64,000 bases of DNA, from the NCBI GenBank assembly GCA_000004985.1, contig GG738845.1. The stretch is one strand, 5' to 3'. The translations under genes were made by a program, and so were the position numbers. Under the pieces are notes generated by a model. That model saw only the letters and a program-made list of their open reading frames with translations, ran no database searches and had not been told where the DNA came from. Each line of letters begins with the position of its first letter. The first letter of the stretch is position 1. The stretch comes from Naegleria gruberi. Lineage: Eukaryota. Below, piece by piece: positions 18,418 to 62,634 of this stretch.

Positions 18418-20217
18418 TTATAATTTAGATTGAATTACATTCAAACTTCTTCTTAGTTGAATATCATCTCTTCTATTCAAAACAACAACACTAACCCTAT
18501 CCAGCTCAGGAGACACCTCCAAATGGATATGATCATTCTCCGCAAACAAGTGATCAGAAGCTGCCAGTGGCGTAAGAATATGATTTTCTAACACACCTGT
18601 AACAGTAAGGGAAGGTCTATATCTCTTCATGAGCCATATCACAACATCCTCACTCCATGTCATTTTGAATCTTTTTTGAGTAAAGGCAAATGTTGAAAAG
18701 ACATTCAATTGTGTCACAATTTGATTACAAAGCTCAATATCTGAGAAGGCAAAGAATGGTATAATAGCATTAAATTGATGGAGGAATGCATCAAAGCATT
18801 TTGGTTGTTTGCTTTCTTCTGTCGATTTGTTAGAATTATTCAAATGATCGACCAGTATTGGTGTGATTTGATGTCTAAATTCAATCACTCTATCTAAGGC
18901 ATCAATGGTTGAGTATGAAGAAGTAACTTGGTCAACAAACTTTGAAGAAGGTGGAGGAGGTGCAACCTTTGTACGATTCATTCTTCGTTTAAAATCATAA
19001 TCATAGGCATCCTCATTCTCGTAACCTTCAAATCCATTATCCCAATTACCTATTGTCTTTTTCTCCTTTTCGTATTTCTCTATTAAATTATTTGGTCCAC
19101 TCTCCAGAATATTCTTTTTCACAACTTGGTCACTTATTACAGAAATGCAAATAAATATGGCCTGGCTGGCATCTATTATTTTCACCAAATCATCCTCGTT
19201 ATCTTTCTTCTTTTCTTTTTTCCCAGGTTCTAGTGAGGATGATTGCTTTCTCGTTTTTTGCTCTAGAATAATGCCAGATCTGAAGAGTTGATGTAAAAAT
19301 CTGAATACAGATGGATGGGCACTCTCCATATTATTGAATACAATTACAGCATTTGGAGTGGTCTCTAGAATGACATTTAATTGACCTAGCATGTAATTGA
19401 AAGGTTCAGAATATCTATACTCATCAGAAAATTGTACAAGATTTGATAAATCTTCCTCCTCGGTAAAATAGCTCATATCTAAGAGTACAAATGGTCTGCT
19501 TTGTGATTGGGCAATGAGTTTTGACAGATAAATTTTTCCACATCCAACAGGTCCAATTAAGAACAAAGAGAGTGGTATCTTTGTTTGCTTCCTTATCTGA
19601 TGATTATCTTCCATATTTGAAATGAATTGATTTTCATTCGTGAGTTGATGATAAGAGTAGGACCATATTGTAGACTGACGAAGTAAGCAGAAACAAACTG
19701 TCTTGATGGCAATTTCCTGATTCACCAAACACTTATTTAAATAATTTTCCAACTGTAAGAGTGGAACAGTCTTTCTCTGCACACCCTTCTTTCCGCCGCT
19801 CATAATTGGTCTATCAAATCTTTCAATAATAAAAGGTGGTCTTATTTGGTGGTTATTGTCTCCCAAATAATCAAATTTGTTAGAGGCTTCGACTGGAACT
19901 GAATTCGATGCTGCCGAAGAAAATAAATTCCAATATTGATGTTGGAATAACATGTTGGTAGCCTTGTCCTTTAATTCTTGAAAAACTCGCATAAATCCAC
20001 CATTTGAATGTGTTGTTTCCTCTTGTTGATCAATGATGAGATTTTCATTCCGATATTTATCAGTTGTGTTTTCTAATGATGCCTTCACATTGGCTGCTGA
20101 TGATGAGGAATTAATTAATTTACTCTGTGTTGTTGTCATATTGTTTTGGTTTGATTGTCCTTGTGAAGGAAGATTTGATGATGAGGGTTGTTTATTTCCT
20201 ATCGTTAAATTGGACAT
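18418..20217 (-). CDS. AAA+ protein of the ClpA/B D2 (AAA_2) type with degenerate Walker A (GPVGCGKI) and Walker B (VIVFNNME) motifs, probable non-catalytic ATPase-fold protein
   Basis: [18 protein letters not shown] parallels ClpB [41 protein letters not shown] parallels [47 protein letters not shown] parallels [29 protein letters not shown]. A D2-small-like C-terminus follows. No signal peptide, so it is not a torsin. Confidence 0.7.
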   Translation of the reverse strand: [599 protein letters not shown]

Positions 20218-31188: not shown

Positions 31189-32838
31189 TTACATCTTTAC
31201 ATTGGAATGAAATGGTTTGATGTAAATATTTTCATCAATTCTCAAAATCATTTCACTAAATTCCAAAGCTCTATCCATTATTGAAACAATGAGATGACAT
31301 GGCTCAATAACACCACTCTTTAGTTGATTGGAGACTTGTTCATCCATTGAGACTCCAAAATATTGTTCATTTTTGATACTTCTCAATTTTGAAAGGACAA
31401 TTGAGGCATCGTAACCCATATTTGTTGATAATACTTTTGGAATAACTTCGAGAGCATTAGAGAATGCTTCCAGAATAAATTGTAATTGATTAGGATAATT
31501 CAATGTTCTAATATACTTGGAAATATCCATAAATGTAGCACCTCCACCAGGACACACTTGTTCTGTATGATTTAATATTCCCATACAGTCCTGAATACTT
31601 CGTTGGATTTCATTGGATATTTCAGAATTAGGGCTTGAAATTTTGATAGTATTCCAAATATACTTGGCATGATTCTGAGAATTCGATAAAATCTCCAAAT
31701 GGTAGTTTCCATTGTCGACACTGGTTAGGTTAATTTCATCCAAATAGCCACAATTATTGTATCCACTCGAAATGATACTATTACCAATGATTGAAAGAAC
31801 CTCTGCCGATTTGAAATCAACAAATCCAACACAGAGAACATTCTTGTGTTTTAAATATTCTTGAACAATTTTGTGAATTCCAATACCAACATTGAATATC
31901 ACGTTGATATTCAATTCATTAATTAAATAGTCACAAAGTTCTGTCAGTTTTTTGTACTCGTTTTCTAAATTTGATTGACTAACTCTAAATATTTTAGAAA
32001 CAAAGTTGCCATTCAATTCCTCTGCTTTGCACATTAATATTTTTACATTTTTCATGTTGAATTGGTTCACATTAAAATGCTTCAAGTTTGTAAATTTATA
32101 TCCACTGTATTGGCATGTTGTAGACATGTCATTTCCAATCTCATTAAAGTAGAATAATTTAAAATTCTTATTAGGATATATAACTCGCAAATTCAATTTG
32201 TGATTATGCACATTCCTTATCAAATTTACAAAATATTCTTCATATTGTGAAATTATCTTTGATTGCATACAAGTCCTAATCAAACTCTCAATGTCCTTCT
32301 CATTACTATTCACAGCATAGCTATTCAAATATAATTTAGATTTTAAAACAGCCAATTGAAATCCTCTCACAATCAATGAAGGATGTAAATTCCTATTCTT
32401 AATTAAATTTAAAGCCTGATTCAACAATTCACAAGTCAATATCACAACTGATGAAGTGCCATCACCAATTAATCTATCCTGCAACAAACTAGCCCTTGAC
32501 AATAACTGACAACTCGGATGTTCAATATTTAAATATTTAATTATCGTACTTCCATCATTTGTAATTATAAAATTATTACTCTTCATCATTTCATTATTTC
32601 CTTCCTCCGATATCGACATTGAATCCCTCTCCTGAAGGCTTTGATTCTCCATGTAAGGTAAATACTGTGATGATGAATCCATAACCTTGTGATTATTATT
32701 ACTTTCAAAAATTGAAATATCCATTCCCATCGGACCAAGTGTATGTTCAATAATTTCCCTACTCAATGATAGACATGATTGAATATTATTTTCAATGGTC
32801 GTTACATTGGAACCTCCTGATGATGAATTAAATTGCAT
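31189..32838 (-). CDS. Divergent group II chaperonin (TCP-1/Cpn60 family) protein, CCT-like or BBS-type chaperonin-like
   Basis: Degenerate chaperonin hallmarks are present in order: GPMGMD (GPxGxDKM), ITNDGSTIIKYL...EHP, GDGTSSVVIL (GDGTT), VCPGGGA (VPGGGA). A ~45-aa low-complexity insertion sits between the first two motifs. Length is 549 aa. Confidence 0.65.
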   Translation of the reverse strand: MQFNSSSGGSNVTTIENNIQSCLSLSREIIEHTLGPMGMDISIFESNNNHKVMDSSSQYLPYMENQSLQERDSMSISEEGNNEMMKSNNFIITNDGSTIIKYLNIEHPSCQLLSRASLLQDRLIGDGTSSVVILTCELLNQALNLIKNRNLHPSLIVRGFQLAVLKSKLYLNSYAVNSNEKDIESLIRTCMQSKIISQYEEYFVNLIRNVHNHKLNLRVIYPNKNFKLFYFNEIGNDMSTTCQYSGYKFTNLKHFNVNQFNMKNVKILMCKAEELNGNFVSKIFRVSQSNLENEYKKLTELCDYLINELNINVIFNVGIGIHKIVQEYLKHKNVLCVGFVDFKSAEVLSIIGNSIISSGYNNCGYLDEINLTSVDNGNYHLEILSNSQNHAKYIWNTIKISSPNSEISNEIQRSIQDCMGILNHTEQVCPGGGATFMDISKYIRTLNYPNQLQFILEAFSNALEVIPKVLSTNMGYDASIVLSKLRSIKNEQYFGVSMDEQVSNQLKSGVIEPCHLIVSIMDRALEFSEMILRIDENIYIKPFHSNVKM

Positions 32839-47250: not shown

Positions 47251-47733
47251 TTAAAAACTACCAAAAAATGTCATGTAAATAGGTTCAATTATTTCAAATC
47301 CTCGACCATCCATCTTTTTAATATAACTCAGGGCATCCTTACTTAATTTATCATCACCATAATGTTGTCTAATAAGATTTACCAACTTTTTAACATACTT
47401 CAAATGAAGTCTCTGATCATGCATCCTGCACACCAGATCCAAATCATCAACAGGTACTCCATTAAATTTCCAAGTAAAAGGACCACCATATTTTCCATAC
47501 CAAAAGGCAACTTTGGTGTTTGATTTTGGGCAGGTTCCGAGAATTGCCAAACATTCCTTCTCACTCTCCAAAAGAGCTGGAGAGCCCTGCTTTATAATTG
47601 AAATGAATTGTTCCTTGTATGTTTGCTCATCTTCCAAAAGGTGTGATATTGAGGAATGATGGATTGAGGGTTGTGGGCTTGCAGATGATGGTTGTTGTTT
47701 TGCAAGCACAATATTTGAATCAGATGATGACAT
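47251..47733 (-). CDS. Hypothetical 160-aa protein
   Basis: ORF with ATG. Globular C-terminal half (AFWYGKYGGPFTWKFNGVPVDDLDLVCRMHDQRL...) without confident family assignment. Confidence 0.45.
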   Translation of the reverse strand: MSSSDSNIVLAKQQPSSASPQPSIHHSSISHLLEDEQTYKEQFISIIKQGSPALLESEKECLAILGTCPKSNTKVAFWYGKYGGPFTWKFNGVPVDDLDLVCRMHDQRLHLKYVKKLVNLIRQHYGDDKLSKDALSYIKKMDGRGFEIIEPIYMTFFGSF

Positions 47734-48515
47734 TATATAGTAGTGATTATGTTCCGACTGGGGCTGATGAATGTGATGATATTGTTTTCAGTGCAATTTT
47801 TACCGAAGGTGGTAAGGGTTTAAATATATTGACTATATTAATAATAACAATGTTTGGCAAATTACGTACCGAACAATTTTCATTTATTAAGCAAAGAAAC
47901 GCTTTTACGCATAATCAGCGAGGGCATTCCATCGAGAATTTATGAGGATTGGGATCTTCAAAAATTAGAGAAATATATTCTGAAATTGTTTCCAAATGAT
48001 GATTCAGTTCATGGAGAATTTCAAGTCGATCAACATGGCCATAAATATAAATATGCCTTCTTGTCCTCTCTTTAGCAGAAATACGTCTCAATATATTTGA
48101 TTTGGATATGGACTGGATTCAAAGAAACACTGAGAAAAAACCTTATTAAATTCTTGGATATTGAAACTGGTAAATAAACAATTTGTTGTGATCATAAATT
48201 GTTCAAGTTTTTCACTCAACTACACTTGAATTACGAGCGCATTACAGTTCAGAGCTAGTGATCATGTGCTTAATTTAATTTCGTTTGTGCTTTGCATTTT
48301 TCAAACCTAATTTCACTCTTGCCAACTTTTATTTAACGGGTGGCACCAATTGCTTGGAACTTCAGATTATGGTGCTATTGTACACTATTGGGAATTAGTT
48401 GCTTATGGGTTTTGTTGTTTTCCAAGAATTGCTTATTTGCCCAACTTTTACTAAACTTCATATTTATTTTCAATCAACCAATAAATCACAAGAAAAGAAC
48501 ACAGCTGATGTTTTC

Positions 48516-49316
48516 TTAAGGTCTTGCTGAAGTACCTGTACGATTTGGAGTGTCAGATGTCCATTCATTAACCTTTTCCACAACCTTATCTTTCATTTCT
48601 TTTGCTTTTTGTCCAGCAATACTTGCAGCTTCCTTAACTGTCTCTGTAACAGCCTCACCCATAGTTGTTGCCTTCTCTTTGCCTCTTTCCATGGCATCTG
48701 ACATGGTATCTTTTACATCTTCCATCTTGTCTTTGGCTTCTTCCTTATATTGAATAGTCTTGTCTCTGACTTTAGTGGTCATATCTTGTGTCTTGTCCAT
48801 TGCCTCATCTTTCATTTCCTTGGCCTTATTCATGGTTTGTTTGACATTCTTATTCATGTCAGATGCCTTTTCTTTAACATTTTCCTTGATATTCTCCTTG
48901 ACATTTCTACCCGTCTTTTTCAAATCAGCAACTCCTTCTTGTGCCTTTCTCATTGCATCACCAGTTTCTTGAGAGGCATTGAACATGTTGGCTCCTGGAC
49001 TTCTAGGAGTAACATTTTCCGACTTGTCCTTTAAAATCCCACCTGCATCATAAATTCCAGGGTTTGCAGATCCAACTTTTTCACTAGTGTTCAAGCCAGA
49101 GTTTGGTTTGTTAAAATAGGATTCTCTGGACATTTCCTCTTCATCGATGGAAACTGGCTTGATAGTTACCTGAGGTTTCTTGGAGGTATTCAATTTAGAT
49201 TCATTCTTCTCCAATGTTGAATCAATGTTGGTGTTCTTATTGATGAGACATGTGGAAAAGGAGCATCTATTGTAACGAGCCAAATACTTGGTGTTTTGTA
49301 AAACTATTCTTTTCAT
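48516..49316 (-). CDS. LEA-like (late-embryogenesis-abundant group 3-type) protein with amphipathic 11-mer K/E/D/M repeats and mitochondrial-presequence-like N-terminus
   Basis: The C-terminal 150 aa consist of KEKASDMNKNVKQTMNKAKEMKDEAMDKTQDMTTKVRDKT...KAKEMKDKVVEKV repeats. The N-terminus is MKRIVLQNTKYLARYNRCSF. Antisense ORFs 48550..49034 are repeat artefacts. Confidence 0.6.
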   Translation of the reverse strand: MKRIVLQNTKYLARYNRCSFSTCLINKNTNIDSTLEKNESKLNTSKKPQVTIKPVSIDEEEMSRESYFNKPNSGLNTSEKVGSANPGIYDAGGILKDKSENVTPRSPGANMFNASQETGDAMRKAQEGVADLKKTGRNVKENIKENVKEKASDMNKNVKQTMNKAKEMKDEAMDKTQDMTTKVRDKTIQYKEEAKDKMEDVKDTMSDAMERGKEKATTMGEAVTETVKEAASIAGQKAKEMKDKVVEKVNEWTSDTPNRTGTSARP

Positions 49317-49502
49317 TTTCTTTCTGACTGTATAATAAATATATTCAAATCATGATTATCTTTTTAAATCTAATTTGGTTTCTTTCTATTAATCACTTAT
49401 CCTTTTTAGTTTAGCTTGAAACCAATAGAATCTACTTCTGTACAGTTAACAAATTTATCAATACTAATTTGTTAATTTGACAAATATGGCCGAGTTTCCC
49501 AA

Positions 49503-50357
49503 TTAAATATCAGCATTGAGTCCTCCAAACATTTTCTCTTCCATCTTTTTCAACTTTTTCAATTCCTTTCTTTCCTTCTTTTCTTCCTTCTTTCTTTTCT
49601 TTTCCTCTTTTGAAAGTTTCTTCTTTGGTTCTTCATTTTCCTTCTTTTCAAGTTGAGTTGGTGATTTCACAACAGCTGAGCCTTCATCCTCTCCATCCTC
49701 TTCTTCATCACTAGAATCGTGTCTTCCATTTGATGGTGATCCCTCAAACATGGTCATCATTAGATACTTGTGAAGCCAATTAGGATCTCTCTTTTTCATG
49801 GCATCATGATACAAAGTCCACTCAAAATCATCATTAGCCTTCTTTACTTTCTTATAAATCATTCCATCCTTTTCCATAGTTTCATATTTCGGAACATTTT
49901 CCTTCTTATCTTGTTGATATCTGTTATTGAACCGACCAGTAGTAGATGATGAATTTCTTCCTCCATTCCTGCCAGAATTTTGTTGTTCTTCCGGATCTTC
50001 GACAATCTTCTTATAATAATTAGGAGCATGATCGACACATATTATTCTTCCACCCAATTCAATGCCATTCAAATTATCAATGGCCAATATTGTCGAGCGA
50101 ACATCTTCATAGGCAATAAAACAAAATCCCTTACTGGTCAATTCCTGTTCCTCACGAACCAAATCAATATCAACAATTTCTCCATATTGAGAGAAAACTG
50201 AGAGTAAATCACCTTCCGTCAATCGGAAATCCAAGCCTCCAATGTAGATGTAGGCTGTTCGATTTTTTTCCTGATGATGCCATGAAGATGGAGTGTTTGT
50301 ATAGCCCAGAGAAAGTTCCTTCTGATTCAACTCGTTGATTTGTTTTGCTCTTTTCAT
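49503..50357 (-). CDS. RBMX2: RRM protein RBMX2 / Ist3-Snu17 (U2 snRNP / RES complex component)
   Basis: MKRAKQINELNQKELSLG...AYIYIGGLDFRLTEGDLLSVFSQYGEIVDIDLVRE...SKGFCFIAYEDVRSTILAIDNLNGIELGGRIICVDH is collinear with human RBMX2. It has a K/E-rich C-terminal tail. Confidence 0.85.
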   Translation of the reverse strand: MKRAKQINELNQKELSLGYTNTPSSWHHQEKNRTAYIYIGGLDFRLTEGDLLSVFSQYGEIVDIDLVREEQELTSKGFCFIAYEDVRSTILAIDNLNGIELGGRIICVDHAPNYYKKIVEDPEEQQNSGRNGGRNSSSTTGRFNNRYQQDKKENVPKYETMEKDGMIYKKVKKANDDFEWTLYHDAMKKRDPNWLHKYLMMTMFEGSPSNGRHDSSDEEEDGEDEGSAVVKSPTQLEKKENEEPKKKLSKEEKKRKKEEKKERKELKKLKKMEEKMFGGLNADI

Positions 50358-50678
50358 TTTTTTTCTAAAGAATAAAAGAATATAATTCTTGTTGAATATG
50401 ACATGAAAACCTCTATTTACTCTGACTTGTAAATATGATGTTTCAAAAGTTATTACAAGGCATCGACACTACAATTCAACAAGTATATTCCTGATACTAA
50501 TTTTGACATCTTCTACTAGTCCTCTCAATTCAGAAAATTTAGTATTAATCTTAAAATCATTAAAGTTCTCTGACTTAGTATAGAGTTTATATATTATACA
50601 AAGGTTGATTAATGATATCCTCAATCATTATTTATTATTATTATTCTTGCTAATTAATCTACGCATGTAGTAGAATAA

Positions 50679-51346
50679 ACTCAGTATTTCAGAAACGACA
50701 ATTTATGTCGTTGTCAAAACGCATCCGGGCTCCCTTTAAACAATCCTAATACCAATCAATTAACACCTGAGAATGATAAACCTACTTGGGAGGAAGATTT
50801 TAATAATCATTTCGAACCATGGTCACCTACTAGATTCGAAGGTGGTGAAATTCAATTCCAATTTAAAGGAACAGAGTCTGCACTTTATTCTAGAATTAGT
50901 AATGATGAGACAAATCTCTATCAATTAAATGATCTTCCAAAGTTCGAACAATTTTGCAAACGAACATACTCTAGAATCAGAACACAACTCATGTCCAATT
51001 GTCAGGCCCATATTTCCATCACAGGCATGGTAAGAAGTGGAAAAACCACAATAGCCAGAGAAATATTTCCTTTTTTCTACACTAGAGAAACTAAATATAC
51101 CTCCTATAAAATATATATAAATTAACGATAATTAATTGGATTTACAATGGTAATACTAAGCCAATAGTTGAATTTTTAAACAAAAACCCTTCAACCATGC
51201 ACTACATTATATTTAACGAAATACAGCTATGTGATACAGATGTTTTATCAATCCTTAAAAAGATTTTCAAAATACCTCAATTGATAGGGAGAAACTTATT
51301 AAGTATTTGGATAGGAAATACACAAGCAGTGTTATTGAAAAGTTGA
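50679..51346 (+). pseudogene. Frameshift-decayed AAA+/P-loop ATPase relic (Walker A GMVRSGKTTIAREIF; Walker B-like YIIFNEIQ)
   Basis: The frame opening at 50679 (no ATG) reads ...FEPWSPTRFEGGEIQFQFKG...QAHISITGMVRSGKTTIAREIFPFFYTRETKYTSYKIYIN* (stop 51123-51125). The +1 frame from 51110 continues ...KPIVEFLNKNPSTMHYIIFNEIQLCDTDVLSILKKIFKIPQLIGRNLLSIWIGNTQAVLLKS* (stop 51344-51346). The frames swap inside a TATAAAATATATATAAAT tract. Walker A to Walker B spacing is about 50-60 aa. Confidence 0.5.
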
Positions 51347-53160
51347 AAATGATTCCTTCGAATGCCTATTCTTTTAATGATAACTGTTTTACTATAACAT
51401 ATTATAGGATGGAAGTTTAAAAATTTAAAAGAATTAAAAGTATATTGCAACTACAGAGAAAAAAAGATTATAAATATAGTGAAGATTTTTGATAGAGATT
51501 TTGCTAAAACTAGATCTCAGTAGATTAATTAAAGAACCAACTTAAAACCAAGTTTTATCAATACCTTAGTCGATAATGAAATTAATTGAAAATTAAGAAG
51601 CTAAATAAATTTTCAAAAGGTTATATATTTGAAATTTAGAAAAGCTTAACAAAGTAATATAAAATACAAAGACCATTAATTTTTAAAAATCTTCTTAAGT
51701 TGGTTTATCATTTTTAAGAATCTAAAGAAAATGAATTTAAAGAAAGAACAAACTTTGTAAAAATATAACAAAAACATTGTTATTGGGTCATACTATTCCA
51801 CCATTCTTTTTTAATATCAATTAGGTCTACCTTAGAGATTCATAATTCATATCGAGATTGATATGAAATATTCATTTTTTGTAAATGGAAAGTGAATCCC
51901 TTATAATATTATTATATACACCAAGCTATTTTGGGAGACTTTTGAAACCTTTTTTGTTGAAGTTTGTTGTATTGGGAAAAACAAACTCACCAAATTGTTA
52001 AAAAAAGTCAAACAGAACACAAAAAAACATTAATTACAATATTCATAATTTTATTAGCAAAAAAAGGAAATTTATTGTATCCTACAGGACTTTCATTTTA
52101 GGTTTTTGTTTGGATTATTGGTACATAATTTGAACACTTGATGTATTTTGGAGTTTATAATATCTCCTTGATATTGAATGTAATGTCATTATGATCAATT
52201 AAAAATCAATATTCTTCCAAAAAAATTCTGAAATACTAAGTTTATTCTACTATACGCGTGTACATTAATTGCTATTAGCTTAAAAAACCATCTGATCAAT
52301 TCAATAAACCATAAAACCAAATCTGAAATATCTATTCTAACAATTTATTATATGATTTGTGTGTTTAGTTAATTTTTAAATTTAATGCAGAGAATAAATT
52401 ATAGAGTTTTCGTCTTGTTCTTGATATCCACCACCCAACAATTTCTTTAGATAATTGGATATCCAAATAAAAATAACATTTTACTAGATCTGAAATTTCT
52501 ATAGAAGTCTTGTTTTGTATTGTTATTTTGTGTTAAGGTGATAAGTAAATTTTTCAATAATGACAGACCTAATAAACACCTTCAAATTTTACATTATTTT
52601 TCATCAAGAAAACATCTTGAAAAAATGATTTAAGAAAGAAAAATCCAATCCATCATTAATGGTTGGAATATTCAAAACAATCTGATAAGTTGTAGCTATC
52701 ATTGAAACATCTTAATGGTATAAATGGTCCGCATTGAATTTAATAAAGTGCTTTTTATTAAGGTTTGAAAGTTACTAAGATCAAATAAATTATCTGGCAC
52801 CATAAAGTAAAAAAAATGAAACTACCCTCACAACCACACAAAATATTCAATAGGATTTATAATAATAATGAAAGAAATAATTTAATAGATGGCACAGAAA
52901 TACAAGTCCATTATTTTACTAAATTATTTTATAACAATACAAATATTAATTTACCACTAAACAAAACAACATTATTAGGAAAAAAAGGAAATATAGTTAA
53001 CTCCTTTGTTAAATTAATTCATCAATACTTTATTCGGAACCTAATTGAAGATTCTAAGTTGTATTGTTTTCTAGTAATTGTTATATATTGTACTTTGAAT
53101 ATCGTTGTTCAATTCATCGATAATCAATTTCAATTCATTTCTACAAACAACAACTTCTGA

Positions 53161-53750
53161 TGAATTGACAGATAATCCATCATAACCATGAATGCATTTG
53201 CCCTTGTAAACTTCATTCAATTCTAACGTCTTGTTTAGCATTACAAATTTCTTATTTTTGTAATCTAAAATCTTATCCTTGTAAAAAAGTCATGAAATGT
53301 TTTGGACTTCTTCTTCCAAAATTCAAATAACAAAGATTAGAATATTTCTGCATTCCTATACAAGTTATGTTTTCCCAAATAAATAGGTGTGTTCTCTAGA
53401 TAACGAAAATTCATTCCAATTTCCAACTCTCAATGCATAATAATAACCTCTAAGGGCTGGTAAAATTGTCTCAAACTTCTGTTGAATTGATATATAATTC
53501 ATCATAGCCGTGAATGTATTTTCCTTTGTATACTTCATTCAACTCTAATGTTTTGTTTAACATAATAAACTTCTTATTTTTGTAATCAATTAATCTTTTG
53601 TGTTTTTTAGAATTCTCCAAATACAATTTCTCCAATTTCTTCGAAGAACATTATAAAATTTTCTGTAAAAACATCATGAAATGTTTTAGACTTTTTCTTC
53701 CAAAAATTCAAATAATAAAGATTAACGATCACAGAAACCCAAAAAAATCA
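53161..53750. repeat. Two diverged direct copies (about 53161..53350 and 53476..53750) of a pseudo-coding fragment, the second carrying a ~75-bp insertion
   Basis: Shared blocks: catcataRccRtgaatgYatttKccYttgtaWacttcattcaaYtctaaYgtYttgtttaRcatWaYaaaYttcttatttttgtaatc and gtcatgaaatgttttRgacttYttcttccaaaattcaaataaYaaagatta. Minus-strand translations of both give ...DYKNKKF(V/I)MLNKTLELNEVYKGK(C/Y)IHGYD... interrupted by stops. Confidence 0.5.
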
Positions 53751-53934
53751 ACCAGTATTTTATAAATCAAAACACACTAACAAGAACCACTGATCCAACC
53801 ATAACAACACATTTAATGAAACCGAAGTACTTTAATACAATATTATACTAAGAAAACTCCAACACACCACTCTCAAAATTAAAAACTCAATCTTCCTTAT
53901 TGCAGCCATATGATTTGAAACCACGAATAAAATT

Positions 53935-54025
53935 TGATGAGTGTGGGATTTGAACCCACGCCCTTGCGGAACACGGTATTAATCATACCTTAACGTGTCG
54001 TCTTAGACCACTCGACCAACTCACC
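53935..54025 (-). tRNA. tRNA-Leu (anticodon AAG) with 11-nt intron at the canonical 37/38 position
   Basis: Minus-strand sequence GGTGAGTTGGTCGAGTGGTCTAAGACGACACGTTAAGG[TATGATTAATA]CCGTGTTCCGCAAGGGCGTGGGTTCAAATCCCACACTCATCA. Acceptor GGTGAGT/ACTCATC (one G-U pair), discriminator A73, GGTCTAAG D-loop, anticodon stem ACACG/CGTGT with loop T-T-AAG-G-C, an 11-nt type II variable arm, T-arm GTGGG-TTCAAAT-CCCAC, and a downstream T-run terminator. Confidence 0.8.
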
Positions 54026-54281
54026 ATCTCTTAAATTTTTTAATATTACTATTATGTTGATTTTTGAGGAAATACTTCCAAATTATTTAATCCCTTGTGT
54101 CATGACGTTTTTGATTAACATTTAATCCATTCCATTGCTATCAGAAATACCTTTAAAATATCTGTCGTATTTAAACGTGTTGAAGCTCTTCTAGTTTAAA
54201 GCCAAACATACTTGAAACAGACCACACTCATTTTAATTATTCGTGCTTCGCACTTTCGAATTCATTTTTAAAAAAATAACC

Positions 54282-55234
54282 ATGTCCACAAATAAGACCA
54301 CATCATCATCTGATGGAGAAGAACAGAGGAACAAGCCTGTTGCACGTTTCAGCAAGGAGGATTTACCAATACTTAAGACCTTCATGGAATCTGCGTTGAA
54401 AATCTACAAGACAGAAAGAGAATGTTACAAAGCATTTGGGAAAAAGTACGGCTATTCCGAAAGTCAAGTTAAACGTAACTACACTGAAAAAATTCGGCCA
54501 TTACTTACTTACTGATAAAGATGATTTGAAAGAAAAATTTAAAAAACGAGCAGCCAATGATGACGACGTTGAAATGGAACGGATTTTTGATGAGAAAGAA
54601 AAGAAGAAACAAAAAATTGAACAACAAGTTGAACGTGCTAAAGAAATTGATGCTGAAATTGAGTATCAATCCGATTCATCTGAAGATTCTTTATTTTGCA
54701 CTCCTTCAAAAACACATATTACAAAAGCGTTGAATCACAAGAATGAATCAGATGTTTACTTTTCATCATTTTGAGAGTAGAACACATCATGTTTTTGCTG
54801 TAAGATATCCAAATCATTTTCTGTTCGAATTTAAAGGTGTAAGTCGTAAAGAAAAGGAAATTTTGATTGATGTGAGTGTTTCTACTTCTTTAAAAGCAAG
54901 TGATATTCAATCAATTTTTGATTCAAACAACGTTAATATTGAAAAGTTAGAAGAAAAGACTGACATATCTACTTCAGTTTACACTTTGAAACAAAAGTTG
55001 CCTAAAAGTGCAGACGCACAGCTCATCAAACAAGGGATTGGATTGCTGCCAGATTCTGAAGACAGAGTGTTCCTACTTTATTGTGAGAAGAAAGTGGATA
55101 TTTTAAAACCATCAAGTGCGAACTCTTTCGCGTTCTTTGCCTCTCCTAAACCAAAAAAACCTCAACTCGAAAGCACTCAGCAAACTCAAGATGCAAGTAC
55201 AGACAATCAAAGTACGAGAGATGCAGATGAATAA
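54282..55234 (+). pseudogene. Frameshift-interrupted ORF cluster (three successive frames: 54282..54515, ~54500..54774, 54743..55234) with an N-terminal helix-turn-helix-like (CENP-B/psq-like) segment; pseudogene or gene with unresolved indels
   Basis: Frame 1 (MSTNKTTSSSDGEEQRNKPVARFSKEDLPILKTFMESALKIYKTERECYKAFGKKYGYSESQVKRNYTEK) ends inside a TTACTTACTTACTG slippage-prone tract where frame 2 continues (LLTDKDDLKEKFKKRAANDDD...). Frame 2 ends at 54774 while frame 3 is already open from 54743. There is no convincing GT..AG pair at either junction, though a GTAAGT at ~54838 with an AG at ~54895 offers one in-frame alternative inside frame 3. Confidence 0.35.
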
Positions 55235-55444: not shown

Positions 55445-56674
55445 TTAGAATCTCATTGCAGGGTTGTATCCTGGTTGTGGATATCCTCTACCCATCATTG
55501 GTGGTCCATTCATTCCCATACCATTGTTGAGTGGTGGAGGTCCATTCATACCCATTCCCATTCCATTATTAAGTGGTGGTGGACCATTCATCATTCCCAT
55601 TCCATTATTAAATCCTTGTGGTGGATATCCTCTACCCATCATTGGTGGAGGCCCATTCATTCCCATTCCATTATTAAGTGGTGGAGGTCCGTTCATACCC
55701 ATTCCCATTCCATTGTTGAGTGGTGGAGGATATCCCATACCTCTTCCCATTCCATTGTTAAGTGGTGGTGGACCATTCATTCCCATTCCATTATTAAGTG
55801 GTGGAGGATAATTCATTCCTCTTCCCATTCCGTTGTTGTTGAGTGGAGGAGGACCACCTGGAATTGTGAATGGTTGTTGTTGTTGTTGTTGTTGTGGAGG
55901 TTGATTACTTCTGGCAGTAGGTTGGAGAGGAGAATCAAATAAATTCAAAACGCTATCCTTGCTAGATACTTGTGTTCTTTGTCCTGTTTGAGTGTTATCC
56001 ATAATAATGAATTCGGATAAATCATTTTGTTTTGGAGTATCTTCAAAAGTAATCAATGATGGAGTATTAGATTGTTGAACTGGTGGTTGCTTGACTTGTT
56101 GAACTGGTCTTGTTTGCTTTTGTGGAGGAGGATTAGCAATGTCATCTTGAGATGATACTGAACGTAAATTTTGTTGTCTGTTTTGTTGGAAATTTTGTGT
56201 AGAGATTGATTGTTTGAGTGGAGTGGTTGGTGTAGTGGCAGGTGATGAATCCTCACTATTCAAATCCAAATTTCCGTATTCTCTAGCATATGCATCATTA
56301 TCAATCCAAAGTTTTCTCTCATATTTTGCTCTGATAAACTTTTCCACTGTTGCAGTATCGGTATCTGCTGTTGGTTTTTCTCTGTCCAATTTGGCTTCGA
56401 AAATGGTATTAGCCTTCTCATTACCAAATAATTCAACCATTCTTCTTTGTTCGTCATTCCATGAATCAAGACCAACACTTCTCACCTTGGAAATATGTGT
56501 ACCTAATTTTCTATGCAAACCAGCACATCTTATACAAAAGAATACACCTTGAGTAGTACTTGCCCATTGTGGTCCTCTTGCGTTACAATCAGCACAAACC
56601 TTGTTTGATGGTATCTTTAAAAGATCATTGACAAGTTTCTTATTCCTTGAATTTTGTTCTTGTTTGCTGGACAT
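55445..56674 (-). CDS. ArfGAP-domain protein with long Pro/Gly/Met/Asn-rich C-terminal tandem repeats (AGFG/SMAP-like architecture)
   Basis: N-terminal ArfGAP zinc finger VCADCNARGPQWASTTQGVFFCIRCAGLHRKLGTHISKVRSVGLDSW (CxxC-x16-CxxC). The C-terminal 170 aa are PPPLNNGMGMNG / GRGMGYPPPLNNGMG repeats ending in poly-Q. Confidence 0.85.
   Translation of the reverse strand: MSSKQEQNSRNKKLVNDLLKIPSNKVCADCNARGPQWASTTQGVFFCIRCAGLHRKLGTHISKVRSVGLDSWNDEQRRMVELFGNEKANTIFEAKLDREKPTADTDTATVEKFIRAKYERKLWIDNDAYAREYGNLDLNSEDSSPATTPTTPLKQSISTQNFQQNRQQNLRSVSSQDDIANPPPQKQTRPVQQVKQPPVQQSNTPSLITFEDTPKQNDLSEFIIMDNTQTGQRTQVSSKDSVLNLFDSPLQPTARSNQPPQQQQQQQPFTIPGGPPPLNNNGMGRGMNYPPPLNNGMGMNGPPPLNNGMGRGMGYPPPLNNGMGMGMNGPPPLNNGMGMNGPPPMMGRGYPPQGFNNGMGMMNGPPPLNNGMGMGMNGPPPLNNGMGMNGPPMMGRGYPQPGYNPAMRF
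55470..55870. repeat. In-frame coding tandem repeat (about 21 to 63-nt periodicity) encoding the PPPLNNGMGMNG repeats of the ArfGAP gene
   Basis: Repeated ccattgttgagtggtggaggtccattcatwcccattcc units. This produces spurious plus-strand ORFs 55464..55811 and 55475..55942. Confidence 0.6.
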
Positions 56675-61182: not shown

Positions 61183-61273
61183 TGATGAGTGTGGGATTTG
61201 AACCCACGCCCTTGCGGAACACGGTATTAATCATACCTTAACGTGTCGTCTTAGACCACTCGACCAACTCACC
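61183..61273 (-). tRNA. tRNA-Leu (anticodon AAG) with 11-nt intron, identical copy of 53935..54025
   Basis: 91/91 nt identical to the first copy. About 50 bp of 5' flank (atctNtaaattttttaatattacYattatgttgatttttgaRgaaat) and the 3' T-run are also conserved. Confidence 0.8.
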
Positions 61274-61607: not shown

Positions 61608-62634
61608 TTATTGAATATGATTTGTTTCTTCTTGAAATATATCGTTTTCAATTGATCTCAAATCAAGAATGGTTTGATTTTCATACTTTTGATTGAAATT
61701 TCTCCAATGAGAATTCATCATTGTTGATAAATATTTGGAACTCGAAAAATTATTTGAAATGGTAAAGTCTTTCTCTTCAAATCGAATGATAACTTGCTCT
61801 ATTAGTGGTATTTCATTTTCATTTGTTGTCAAATTATTGACATCGCAAGTCTTGAATGGTTCAATTCCAAATTCATCATATGGTTCAATAAATTCAAAAT
61901 CATTCACTACTTTTGACAGCCAATATAGTGCTAATTTCAAATCCATTTCAACACCCTCTCCTTTTTTGTAACAACAACCAAGATTAAATTGACCATCCTT
62001 GCACCCTTTTTCAGCAGCTTTGAAATACCACTCAAATGCTTTAACATCGTCTTGTTCTACTCCTATACCATCATCAAAGCAAACGCCAATATTTAATTGA
62101 GCTCTTGCATAACCCTTTTCAGCAGCTCTTAAATACCATTCAAATGCTTTAACATCGTCTTGCTCAACTCCTGCACCTTTTCTATAAATACATCCAATCA
62201 CAAACTGTGCATCTGTATCACCCTTTTCAGCAGCTTTTAAATACCATTCAAATGCTTTAACATAGTCTTGTTGAACGCCTTTCCCCTCCTCAAAAAATGC
62301 TCCAACATTAAATTGAGCAGTTGTATCACCCTTTTCAGCAGCTTTTAAAGTCCATCGTTCTACACAAGTGAAAAGACAAACTGCATAATATCGATACCAA
62401 CACAGCAACACAGGACCACTGATGGAGGAATTTATACAATTTTTTATTAGAAGAATAGGAAATCAATGCTGTTTGTTGATTTCTCTTCCAACCTTGATTG
62501 TATGGTGCATCTAAAATGACATAAATATTGGTTAAACCACAAAGTTCAAGACTGTCATTAATCGGATCTCTGGATGTGTAAGCGAGGATGAAGATAATCT
62601 TCTGATCATTTCCAGAAGGTATTGTTAACATCAT
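61608..62634 (-). CDS. Sel1-like repeat (SLR/TPR-like) protein; two exons complement(join(61608..62359,62398..62634))
   Basis: At least four consecutive Sel1 units (KAFEWYLKAAEKGDTDAQFVIGCIYRKGAGVEQDDV and relatives). A 38-nt GTATCG...TGTAG intron (62360..62397, phase 1) joins ORF 62335..62649 to ORF 61608..62411, creating a fifth canonical unit SCVAVL-E-RWTLKAAEKG. The listed start is GTG; the first ATG is at 62634. Confidence 0.6.

What the first reader, a model, noticed from the sequence alone, without database searches (positions are those of the whole stretch)
50679..51346. Cryptic frameshift-decayed AAA+ ATPase relic invisible to the ORF track
Two adjacent frames without ATG starts encode a Walker A box (ITGMVRSGKTTIAREIF) and, about 55 aa later in the +1 frame, a Walker B-like box (HYIIFNEIQ, with a clamp-loader/initiator-like CDTDVLSILKKIF segment after it). 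The frames swap inside a (TA)n-rich tract at about 51105-51122, and further upstream the frame lacks any Met. The spacing and motif shapes fit an AAA+ ATPase of the clamp-loader, initiator, IstB or packaging type. A dead ATPase in an A/T-rich island next to tRNA genes is what a decayed transposon or integrated-virus helper gene would look like. Alternatively it is a recently pseudogenised host gene.
Basis: seen in the sequence. Interest (0 to 1): 0.6.

Follow-up and report, generated by a model that had tools for sequence, protein, structure and literature searches.

The report
Dead P-loop ATPase gene in Naegleria
This is a real but ordinary broken gene: an unannotated, frameshifted copy of a small nucleotide-binding protein known only from the amoeba Naegleria gruberi, sitting between two short inverted repeats that hint it may once have moved as mobile DNA.

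Summary
The window is Naegleria gruberi NEG-M nuclear DNA. At 50705-51420 (+) a reading frame is broken into pieces. Frame A (50679-51125) carries a canonical Walker A (GMVRSGKTT). Frame B (51110-51346, -1/+2 relative to A) carries HYIIFNEIQ. A third frame (51259-51420) is a possible tail, and the only usable ATG (50705) lies in a fourth segment. No GT donor exists that could splice out the A-to-B break, so these are frameshifts and not introns. Frame A is homologous (31% identity, E=2e-8 against 1.84 billion proteins) to a single protein, N. gruberi NAEGRDRAFT_61937, on another scaffold. Joining A and B raises the Pfam AAA_14 score from 13 to 26.5 bits (cut-off 27). Nine controls (other frames, shuffles) reached at most 15.9 bits. 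The relic is therefore a pseudogene of a Naegleria-specific orphan P-loop NTPase. Membership of AAA+, IstB, clamp-loader or packaging-ATPase families is not shown. A new point: the relic lies inside a 1.62 kb segment bounded by a 43-45 nt inverted repeat (50652-50694 / 52226-52270). This is transposon-like, but there is no transposase, no clear target duplication and no further copies that I could reach. Interest is low.

The parts
50652..50694 (.). Left arm of the inverted repeat (AATTAATCT-ACGCATGTAGTAGAATAAACTCAGTATTTCAGAA). It ends 10 nt before the ATG of the relic.
   Evidence: the repeat finder I1 gives 34 nt at 91%. Local alignment extends it to 43/45 nt with one 2-nt indel. blastn gives 86.7% over 45 nt, E=7e-8. 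A 27-mer core with up to 3 mismatches is expected 0.00 times in shuffles.
50705..50746 (+). N-terminal segment with the only plausible start codon (MSLSKRIRAPFKQS*). It is out of frame with the main segment, which implies frameshift 1 near 50720-50745.
   Evidence: The length of the N-terminus matches that of the paralogue P0001 in the alignment. That this ATG was the original start is an inference.
50679..51125 (+). Frame A: a 149-codon open frame with no upstream ATG. It holds an N-terminal region of about 100 aa and the Walker A motif GMVRSGKTT (51024-51050), and ends in a TAA inside the (TA)n-rich tract.
   Evidence: Searches give the frame. The homology to N. gruberi NAEGRDRAFT_61937 rests on (E=2e-8, 31% identity; BLASTP 2e-16; tblastn 5e-14, window 50736-51116).
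51105..51125 (+). Site of frameshift 2 (frame A to frame B, -1/+2) within TATAAAATATATATAAAT. The shift is compatible with gain of one TA unit by slippage or with loss of 1 nt.
   Evidence: Deleting two nt here joins A and B into one frame. There is no GT dinucleotide between 51037 and 51150, so no intron can bridge the break.
51110..51346 (+). Frame B: a 78-codon open frame (plus stop codon) carrying the Walker-B-like HYIIFNEIQ (51200-51226, with N where the canonical Asp would be) and CDTDVLSILKKIF.
   Evidence: Appending frame B to frame A raises the AAA_14 score from 12.9 to 26.0-26.5 bits, and the match extends to profile position 84/129. The other two frames and 7 shuffles give 0-15.9 bits.
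51259..51420 (+). Frame C: a possible C-terminal tail (..REKLIKYLDRKYTSSVIEKLKMIPSNAYSFNDNCFTITYYRMEV*), which would imply frameshift 3 near 51260-51290. This is the weakest part.
   Evidence: It is open for 53 codons. It has no Pfam hit and no significant similarity to the C-terminus of P0001. It is included only as an inference.
51421..52225 (.). A/T-rich interior between the relic and the right repeat arm, with stops in all six frames and no recognisable coding remnant.
   Evidence: Six-frame translation. Pfam gives no hit at E<=1 in any frame. Rfam finds nothing.
52226..52270 (.). Right arm of the inverted repeat (TTCTGAAATACTAAGTTTATTCTACTATACGCGTGTACATTAATT).
   Evidence: Similarity is confined to the arms: sequence inward and outward of them aligns no better than shuffles (z from -0.9 to -2.1 inward).

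Best explanation
The feature is an unannotated, non-functional pseudogene at about 50705-51420 on the + strand of a Naegleria gruberi NEG-M nuclear scaffold. Its ancestor was a protein of about 240 aa from a Naegleria-restricted orphan family. That protein had a family-specific N-terminal region of about 100 aa, followed by a P-loop NTPase core with a canonical Walker A (GxxxxGKT). About 50 residues further on it had a beta-strand-like hhhhNE(IQ) motif in the Walker B position. The core most resembles Pfam AAA_14 and STAND-type NTPases. The only detectable relative is a diverged paralogue in the same genome, NAEGRDRAFT_61937. The copy in the window was inactivated by at least two, probably three, frameshifts. 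One of them lies in a short (TA)n run and is compatible with dinucleotide slippage. The long stop-free segments in 29% GC DNA suggest that the gene was under selection until fairly recently. Shown here: the motifs, the frame breaks, the impossibility of splicing across the A/B break, the homology of frame A, and the specific contribution of frame B to an NTPase profile. Inferred: the original start codon, the frame C tail, NTP binding by the ancestor, and recent death. The pseudogene lies in a 1619-nt segment (50652-52270) bounded by 43-45 nt inverted repeats. This suggests, but does not prove, that the copy arrived on a cut-and-paste type mobile element or was later flanked by one. Today the locus most likely does nothing.
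For: Organism: window ORFs are identical to N. gruberi EFC50841, 50843, 50846, 50849, 50850 and 50851 on a 1.555 Mb scaffold. Frames and motifs. Not an intron: no GT lies between 51037 and 51150, and the GTs at 51030 and 51037 sit inside the conserved P-loop codons. Homology: an exhaustive phmmer search of 1.84e9 representative proteins returned exactly one hit, P0001, at E=2.1e-8 over query residues 17-123. BLASTP gives 2e-16. P0001 is EFC50151.1 / XP_002682895.1 / NAEGRDRAFT_61937 on a different 1.0 Mb scaffold. NTPase core across the frameshift: AAA_14 scores 26.0-26.5 bits, E=7e-6 to 1e-5, residues 100-184 to profile 5-84/129, against 12.9 bits for frame A alone and 0-15.9 bits for nine controls. 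PADLOC PDC-S01 at E=6.6e-5 (residues 84-177) and TIGR01193 at E=0.002 (82-211) also span the junction. Unannotated: locus tags run 61589, then two genes, then 61592 across the region, and neither small ATG-ORF is in the 15-billion-protein collection. Assembly quality: the rest of the window has intact ORFs of up to 1491 aa. Inverted repeat.
Against: The AAA_14 score is 0.5 bit below Pfam's gathering cut-off, and every other family hit is P-loop-only. Homology to the paralogue is demonstrated only for frame A. The C-terminal halves show no BLASTP similarity, so frames B and C rest on profile evidence (B) or on open-frame length alone (C). The Walker-B-like motif has Asn instead of the catalytic-metal-binding Asp. 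The structure prediction failed (mean pLDDT 36), so the fold is unconfirmed. I could not read the paralogue's locus or the rest of the genome. Copy number is therefore unknown, as is whether NAEGRDRAFT_61937 is itself intact, because its 197-aa model may be truncated or spliced around defects. The frameshifts were not verified against raw reads.
Confidence: 0.78

Rival explanations
1. The 1.62 kb segment 50652-52270 is a dead copy of a DNA transposon with terminal inverted repeats. The P-loop NTPase would be its own accessory or cargo gene, comparable in role to IstB, TnsC or MuB, which load or regulate a transposase. In that case NAEGRDRAFT_61937 would be another copy of the element. This overlaps with the best explanation and differs only on origin.
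For: There are 43-45 nt inverted repeats at 87-91% identity, confined to the termini, with none expected by chance. The ORF starts 10 nt inside the left arm. The arms are flanked by the A/T-rich palindromic sequence AATTAAT, which allows TA, TTAA or AATT target duplications. The family is restricted to one species and has a paralogue on another scaffold. An independent metagenome contig of a near-identical strain ends 58 nt before the left arm, which is where assemblies tend to break at repeats. Kolobok elements with TTAA duplications are reported from Naegleria (PMC9587614).
Against: No transposase or any other coding remnant is present in the remaining 800 nt. The target-site duplication is ambiguous. 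The termini do not fit Kolobok (5'-RR) or piggyBac (5'-CCC). Only two copies of the arm are in the 64 kb window, and none are in JGI metagenome, viral or prokaryotic collections. The two protein copies are only 31% identical, unlike a recently active family. No cut-and-paste eukaryotic transposon superfamily that I know of carries an AAA_14-like NTPase.
Confidence: 0.25
2. The gene is intact and functional. On this reading the apparent breaks are short introns, programmed ribosomal frameshifts or errors in the assembly.
For: N. gruberi genes do contain introns. The frames follow one another in order on one strand, with short overlaps. One break sits in a (TA)n run and others sit near homopolymers, which are error-prone sites.
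Against: No GT donor is available for the A/B break without deleting the conserved P-loop. At least two and probably three independent shifts are needed within 700 nt. Neighbouring genes are intact over tens of kb. The genome annotation has no model here (inferred from the order of locus tags).
Confidence: 0.06
3. The feature is a remnant of an integrated virus, such as a giant virus or a polinton-like element, and encodes a packaging or replication ATPase.
For: The region is an A/T-rich island without genes. It holds a P-loop protein with no cellular homologues outside one species.
Against: There is no hit to any viral protein family: PHROGs gave none for the relic. No relative was found in 2.9 million viral contigs. 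There is no FtsK/HerA, D5 or other viral ATPase Pfam hit at E<=10. No other virus-like genes are in the island. The island's composition is that of ordinary Naegleria intergenic DNA.
Confidence: 0.03
4. The Walker-like strings in A/T-rich non-coding DNA are a chance resemblance.
For: The Walker-B-like motif is non-canonical (NE instead of DE), and all profile hits are below curated thresholds.
Against: Frame A has a specific homologue that covers 107 residues, most of them outside the P-loop. The open frame of 149 codons has P of about 3e-6 per start position. The frame-B contribution is specific when tested against controls.
Confidence: 0.01

Closest known systems
NAEGRDRAFT_61937 (EFC50151.1 / XP_002682895.1 / UniProt D2UZH3), 'predicted protein' of Naegleria gruberi, 197 aa
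   Same: It comes from the same organism. It shares the N-terminal region and the P-loop context (FV-TGLVRTGKTT-ARYLFPY against SI-TGMVRSGKTT-AREIFPF). Identity is 31% over about 110 residues, E=2e-8.
   Different: It lies on another scaffold and is annotated as a gene. It is shorter, and its C-terminal 60 residues show no significant similarity to frames B and C of the relic. It has no Pfam assignment either: only AAA_18 and AAA_22 P-loop hits at E of about 0.01-0.07.
Pfam AAA_14 (PF13173), the P-loop NTPase domain typical of prokaryotic 'ATPase + DUF4143' proteins
   Same: Walker A comes first, followed about 20 residues later by a short beta strand (YKIYIN). The h-h-h-h-[D/N]-E-I-Q motif then comes at the spacing the profile expects. 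The match covers profile positions 5-84 of 129.
   Different: The score of 26.0-26.5 bits is just under the 27-bit cut-off. Asn replaces the Walker B Asp. No DUF4143-like C-terminal domain is present. There is a eukaryote-specific N-terminal extension. No prokaryotic homologue is detectable by direct sequence search.
STAND NTPases (Pfam NB-ARC PF00931, nSTAND3)
   Same: The residues around the P-loop (..hIsItGMvrsGKTTiAreif) resemble the NB-ARC P-loop. NB-ARC scores 18.5 bits, E=0.0013.
   Different: The match covers only profile positions 4-51 of 248 and is below the 23.5-bit cut-off. It does not grow when frame B is added. There are no ARC subdomains, no repeats and no effector domain.
Transposition-helper ATPases IstB (IS21), TnsC (Tn7) and MuB
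   Same: Only the concept is shared: a small P-loop ATPase gene lying inside a segment bounded by inverted repeats.
   Different: There is no sequence hit to IstB_IS21 or related families at E<=10. No partner transposase is present. Those systems are prokaryotic or from phage.

Membership tests
P-loop NTPase (Walker-type) | Walker A motif GxxxxGK[ST] following a beta strand | tested here: met
   GMVRSGKTT lies at 51024-51050 and is preceded by the hydrophobic stretch HISIT. It is conserved in the paralogue as GLVRTGKTT.
P-loop NTPase (Walker-type) | Walker B motif hhhhD[DE], about 50-100 residues after Walker A | tested here: inconclusive
   YIIFNEIQ lies about 50 residues after the GKT, in the shifted frame. 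It has the hydrophobic strand and the Glu, but Asn replaces the Asp. Its position fits the DEIQ of AAA_14.
Pfam AAA_14 (PF13173) | Whole-sequence score at or above the curated gathering cut-off (27 bits) | tested here: not met
   The score is 26.0 bits and 26.5 bits on the conceptual A+B join. That is 0.5-1 bit short, but clearly above the nine controls (0-15.9 bits).
AAA+ ATPases in the strict sense (clamp loader, initiator, IstB type) | Sensor 1, arginine finger or box VII, and a C-terminal helical lid domain with sensor 2 | tested here: inconclusive
   No Pfam AAA (PF00004), RFC, Cdc6/ORC, DnaA, Bac_DnaA or IstB_IS21 hit appeared at E<=10. The AlphaFold model is unusable (pLDDT 36), so the fold and lid could not be examined.
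FtsK/HerA-type packaging ATPase (Polinton or virus) | Profile match to FtsK/HerA or A32-like ATPase families | tested here: not met
   No such hit appeared in Pfam or PHROGs. No relative was found in viral contigs.
STAND / NB-ARC | NB-ARC profile at or above 23.5 bits, covering the P-loop, RNBS-A, kinase 2 and ARC subdomains | tested here: not met
   The score is 17.7-18.5 bits and only profile positions 4-51 of 248 are matched.
Pseudogene (non-processed, of a paralogous family) | Disabling lesions in a sequence homologous to a protein-coding gene of the same genome | tested here: met
   The start codon is out of frame. There is a stop at 51123-51125, a frame change from A to B that cannot be spliced, and a probable further change from B to C. 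The paralogue is P0001.
TIR (cut-and-paste) DNA transposon | Terminal inverted repeats confined to the ends | tested here: met
   Arms of 43/45 nt at 50652-50694 and 52226-52270, 87-91% identical, with no similarity beyond the arms.
TIR (cut-and-paste) DNA transposon | Target-site duplication of defined length directly outside the TIRs | tested here: inconclusive
   Read directly: GCT|AATTAAT...ATTAATT|GCT. Depending on where the TIR is taken to start, GCT, AATT, TTAA or TA could each be the duplication. One copy cannot decide.
TIR (cut-and-paste) DNA transposon | A transposase gene (autonomous copy), or multiple dispersed copies sharing the termini (non-autonomous copy) | tested here: not met
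   No transposase domain appears in any of the six frames of 51250-52270 or in the relic. No further copy of the arm is in the window or in the three public DNA collections. The rest of the N. gruberi genome could not be searched.

The most novel reading that the evidence does not exclude
The 1.62 kb unit bounded by inverted repeats could be a decayed member of an undescribed Naegleria DNA-transposon family whose signature gene is an AAA_14/STAND-like P-loop NTPase. That would make it a eukaryotic counterpart of the IstB, TnsC or MuB helper ATPases, or a mobile NTPase cargo. NAEGRDRAFT_61937 would then be a second, possibly still active or domesticated, copy.
Probability: 0.1. Interest if true: 0.55.

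Novelty: new member of a known kind. Interest (0 to 1): 0.2.

Why it matters
Its importance is modest. It adds one unannotated pseudogene to the N. gruberi genome. It also shows that the orphan gene NAEGRDRAFT_61937 belongs to a small species-restricted family of P-loop NTPases with at least one dead member. The only element of wider interest is the pair of inverted repeats around the relic. If whole-genome searches showed more copies with the same termini, this would define a new mobile element in Heterolobosea with an unusual ATPase gene. Without that, it is an ordinary case of gene death in an intergenic A/T-rich stretch.

Tried and rejected
- **Yeast origin:** I first suspected a yeast genome from the compact, 34% GC sequence. 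Exact protein look-ups showed it is Naegleria gruberi.
- **Word-indexed homology search:** the search of 5.8e9 clusters with the joined relic found nothing. Only the exhaustive HMMER search found the paralogue. Searching with the paralogue returned only itself.
- **Introns:** rejected, because there is no usable GT donor.
- **Inverted gene duplication as the source of the repeat:** rejected, because similarity stops at the 45-nt arms and tblastn finds no second copy in the window.
- **Structure prediction:** the model built from the two-sequence alignment had pLDDT 36 and is unusable, so I ran no fold search.
- **PDB searches:** only a P-loop-only match to Kti12 and noise.
- **PHROGs, NCBIfam and PADLOC:** only weak generic P-loop hits.
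- **Relatives elsewhere:** related loci in JGI metagenomes and viral contigs, none. Repeat-arm pattern in metagenome, viral and prokaryotic collections, none.
- **Fetching the paralogue's locus or the annotation of this locus:** the N. gruberi assembly is not in the gene-position index.
- **Literature:** no mention of NAEGRDRAFT_61937 and nothing on such an element in Naegleria. Kolobok termini do not fit.
- **Rest of the island:** no Pfam hits in 51250-52270. The duplicated ORF-like unit at 53.1-53.7 kb has no Pfam hit and no homologue.

Full report
**What the window is.** The 64 kb window is compact, 34% GC DNA with long ORFs. Exact look-ups show that six window ORFs are identical to Naegleria gruberi proteins. 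Examples are 18418-20217, 31189-32838, 47251-47733 and 55445-56674. The proteins are EFC50841, 50843, 50846, 50849, 50850 and 50851, on a 1,555,553-nt scaffold. The sequence is therefore nuclear DNA of the amoeboflagellate N. gruberi NEG-M. This matters because introns had to be considered.

**Checking the observation.**
- Frame A is open from 50679 to the TAA at 51123-51125. It contains ITGMVRSGKTTIAREIF at 51018-51068.
- Frame B is open from 51110 to 51346. It contains HYIIFNEIQ at 51200-51226 and CDTDVLSILKKIF at 51230-51268.
- The two frames overlap for 16 nt inside TATAAAATATATATAAAT.
- Frame B is offset by -1/+2 from frame A. A gain of one TA unit or a loss of one base would produce this offset, and removing two bases there fuses the frames.
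- Frame A has no ATG before 50991.
- The only sensible start is ATG 50705 (MSLSKRIRAPFKQS*), 10 nt after an inverted-repeat arm. It is in a different frame, so a further frameshift lies near 50720-50745.
- A third frame (51259-51420) may hold the C-terminal tail, but I found no independent support for it.

The region is the most A/T-rich in the window (GC 0.26-0.29). It also lies in the largest stretch of the window without an ORF of at least 120 aa (50358-54742). The nearest tRNA is at 53935-54025, so 'next to tRNA genes' is generous.

**Frameshifts, not introns.**
- No GT dinucleotide lies between 51037 and 51150.
- The GTs at 51030 and 51037 are inside the codons for the P-loop, which is conserved in the paralogue.
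- No GT-AG intron can therefore remove the stop that ends frame A.
- The neighbouring genes are intact over tens of kilobases, so a generally poor assembly is unlikely.
- I could not check the raw reads.

**Is it a real gene remnant?** Yes.
- A word-indexed search of 5.8 billion protein clusters found nothing.
- An exhaustive HMMER search of 1.84 billion representative proteins returned exactly one hit: P0001, E=2.1e-8, 31% identity over query residues 17-123.
- BLASTP between the two gives 2e-16. tblastn of P0001 against the window gives 5e-14 at 50736-51116.
- P0001 is EFC50151.1 / XP_002682895.1 / NAEGRDRAFT_61937, a 197-aa 'predicted protein' of N. gruberi on a different 1.0 Mb scaffold.
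- The similarity covers about 80 residues upstream of the P-loop as well as the P-loop itself (..VTGLVRTGKTTTARYLFPY.. against ..ITGMVRSGKTTIAREIFPF..). It is not a motif-only match.
- Searching with P0001 finds only itself.

The family is therefore, as far as these databases show, restricted to N. gruberi, with one annotated member and this relic.

**Does frame B really continue frame A?**
- Frame A alone gives weak P-loop-only Pfam hits: NB-ARC 18.5 bits, AAA_18 15.9 bits, AAA_14 12.9 bits.
- With frame B appended, AAA_14 rises to 26.0-26.5 bits (E=7e-6 to 1e-5). The match then runs from residue 100 to 184, profile positions 5-84 of 129, which is through HYIIFNEIQ and the following helix.
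- As controls I appended the other two frames of the same DNA and seven shuffles of frame B. AAA_14 was then absent or scored 12.6-15.9 bits, and the match stopped near the P-loop.
- Two independent libraries also give matches that span the junction: PADLOC PDC-S01 (E=6.6e-5, residues 84-177) and NCBIfam TIGR01193 (E=0.002, residues 82-211).

The Walker-B-like segment is thus very probably the true continuation.

**Caveats on frames B and C.**
- The AAA_14 score stays 0.5 bit under Pfam's cut-off.
- The motif has Asn where Walker B has Asp.
- The C-terminal third of P0001 shows no significant similarity to frames B or C.
- A MAFFT alignment places 'YVNRI' of P0001 under 'IFNEI', but that placement is not statistically supported.

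The paralogue P0001 gave only P-loop-only matches: AAA_22 at E=0.073 and a PHROG clamp-loader model at E=0.084. A two-sequence AlphaFold run gave pLDDT 36, so the fold could not be used. PDB profile searches gave only a P-loop match to Kti12. The defensible label is 'P-loop NTPase, closest to AAA_14 / STAND-like, family-specific N-terminal region'. AAA+ membership is unproven.

**New finding: inverted repeats.** The relic is bracketed by an inverted repeat. The arms are at 50652-50694 and 52226-52270 and match over 43/45 nt with one 2-nt indel. Identity is 87% over the full length and 91% over the 34-nt core. A 27-nt core allowing 3 mismatches occurs only at these two places, against 0.00 expected in shuffles.

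Similarity ends at the arms. The 500 nt inward and 200 nt outward align no better than shuffled sequence. tblastn finds no second gene copy. This is therefore not an inverted duplication of the gene but a terminal-inverted-repeat-like structure around a 1619-nt unit. The ORF occupies the left 45% of the unit. The remaining 800 nt have stops in all frames and no Pfam or Rfam match.

The outer flanks read GCT|AATTAAT...ATTAATT|GCT. Depending on where the repeat is taken to begin, GCT, AATT, TTAA or TA could be a target-site duplication, and one copy cannot decide. Kolobok elements (TTAA duplications, 5'-RR termini) are reported from Naegleria (PMC9587614), but the termini here do not fit. There is no transposase, no further copy of the arms in the window, and none in JGI metagenome, viral or prokaryotic contig collections.

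**Interpretation.** The best-supported reading (confidence about 0.78) is a non-processed pseudogene of a Naegleria-specific orphan P-loop NTPase, killed by two or three frameshifts. One of these is plausibly a TA slippage.

Frames of 149 and 78 codons remain free of stops although random sequence of this composition has a stop every 12 codons or so. The gene was therefore probably under selection until fairly recently, although its divergence from the paralogue (31% identity) is old.

The ancestral protein presumably bound a nucleotide through its P-loop. Whether it hydrolysed that nucleotide is unclear, given the Asn in the Walker B position.

The inverted repeats make a mobile-element origin a live secondary hypothesis (about 0.25, not exclusive of the first). 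An intact gene with unusual decoding, or assembly error (about 0.06), a viral remnant (about 0.03) and chance (about 0.01) are unlikely for the reasons given under each rival.

**Verdict.** The specific family suggestions are not supported. The transposon idea is strengthened by the inverted repeats but remains unproven. This is a new member of a known kind of feature and of low general interest. A whole-genome search with the 1.62 kb unit would settle the one interesting possibility.

Noticed in passing
window 53152-53339 and 53474-53724: A tandem duplication with a period of about 322-384 nt and 84-90% identity. It carries ORF-like frames on the minus strand (..DYKNKKF[IV]MLNKTLELNEVYKGK[CY]IHGYD..). 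It has no Pfam hit and no homologue in 5.8 billion protein clusters. It may be a second decayed orphan gene or a non-coding repeat in the same A/T-rich island.
   Followed up: partly
window 53935-54025 (-) and 61183-61273 (-): Two copies of an intron-containing tRNA with a long variable arm. ARAGORN could not name the anticodon. Read by eye, the loop is TT-AAG-G plus an 11-nt intron, which makes it tRNA-Leu(AAG). The copies share 148 nt, including flanks, at 96.6% identity and lie 7.2 kb apart.
   Followed up: partly
L001 (ENA ERZ929261, contig k127_98179) = window 48479-50594: An environmental metagenome contig is 99.2% identical to this Naegleria locus, so a very close N. gruberi-group strain is present in that sample. 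The contig ends 58 nt before the left inverted-repeat arm.
   Followed up: partly
window 54280-55234 (+): Upstream of the annotated 163-aa gene NAEGRDRAFT_61592 (54743-55234) there are two further long open frames in the other two phases. One is 54280-54514 (MSTNKTTSSSDGEEQRNKP...). The other is about 54490-54775 (..DKDDLKEKFKKRAANDDDVEMERIF..). The gene model may be truncated, with short introns or frameshifts linking three exons.
   Followed up: no
window 55451-55850 (-) and 61948-62355 (-): There are in-frame tandem repeats inside coding regions. Units of about 36-85 nt lie in the C-terminal part of the ArfGAP gene (a Gly/Pro/Met/Asn-rich repeat). Three 108-nt units lie in ORF 61608-62411.
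   Followed up: no
window 49503-50357 (-) and 48516-49316 (-): The RRM-domain ORF and the Lys/Glu-rich (apolipoprotein/LEA-like) ORF next to the island were not found as exact gene products in the gene-position index, apart from the RRM ORF on the metagenome contig L001. Their NCBI models may therefore differ from the plain ORFs, for example through introns or alternative starts.
   Followed up: no
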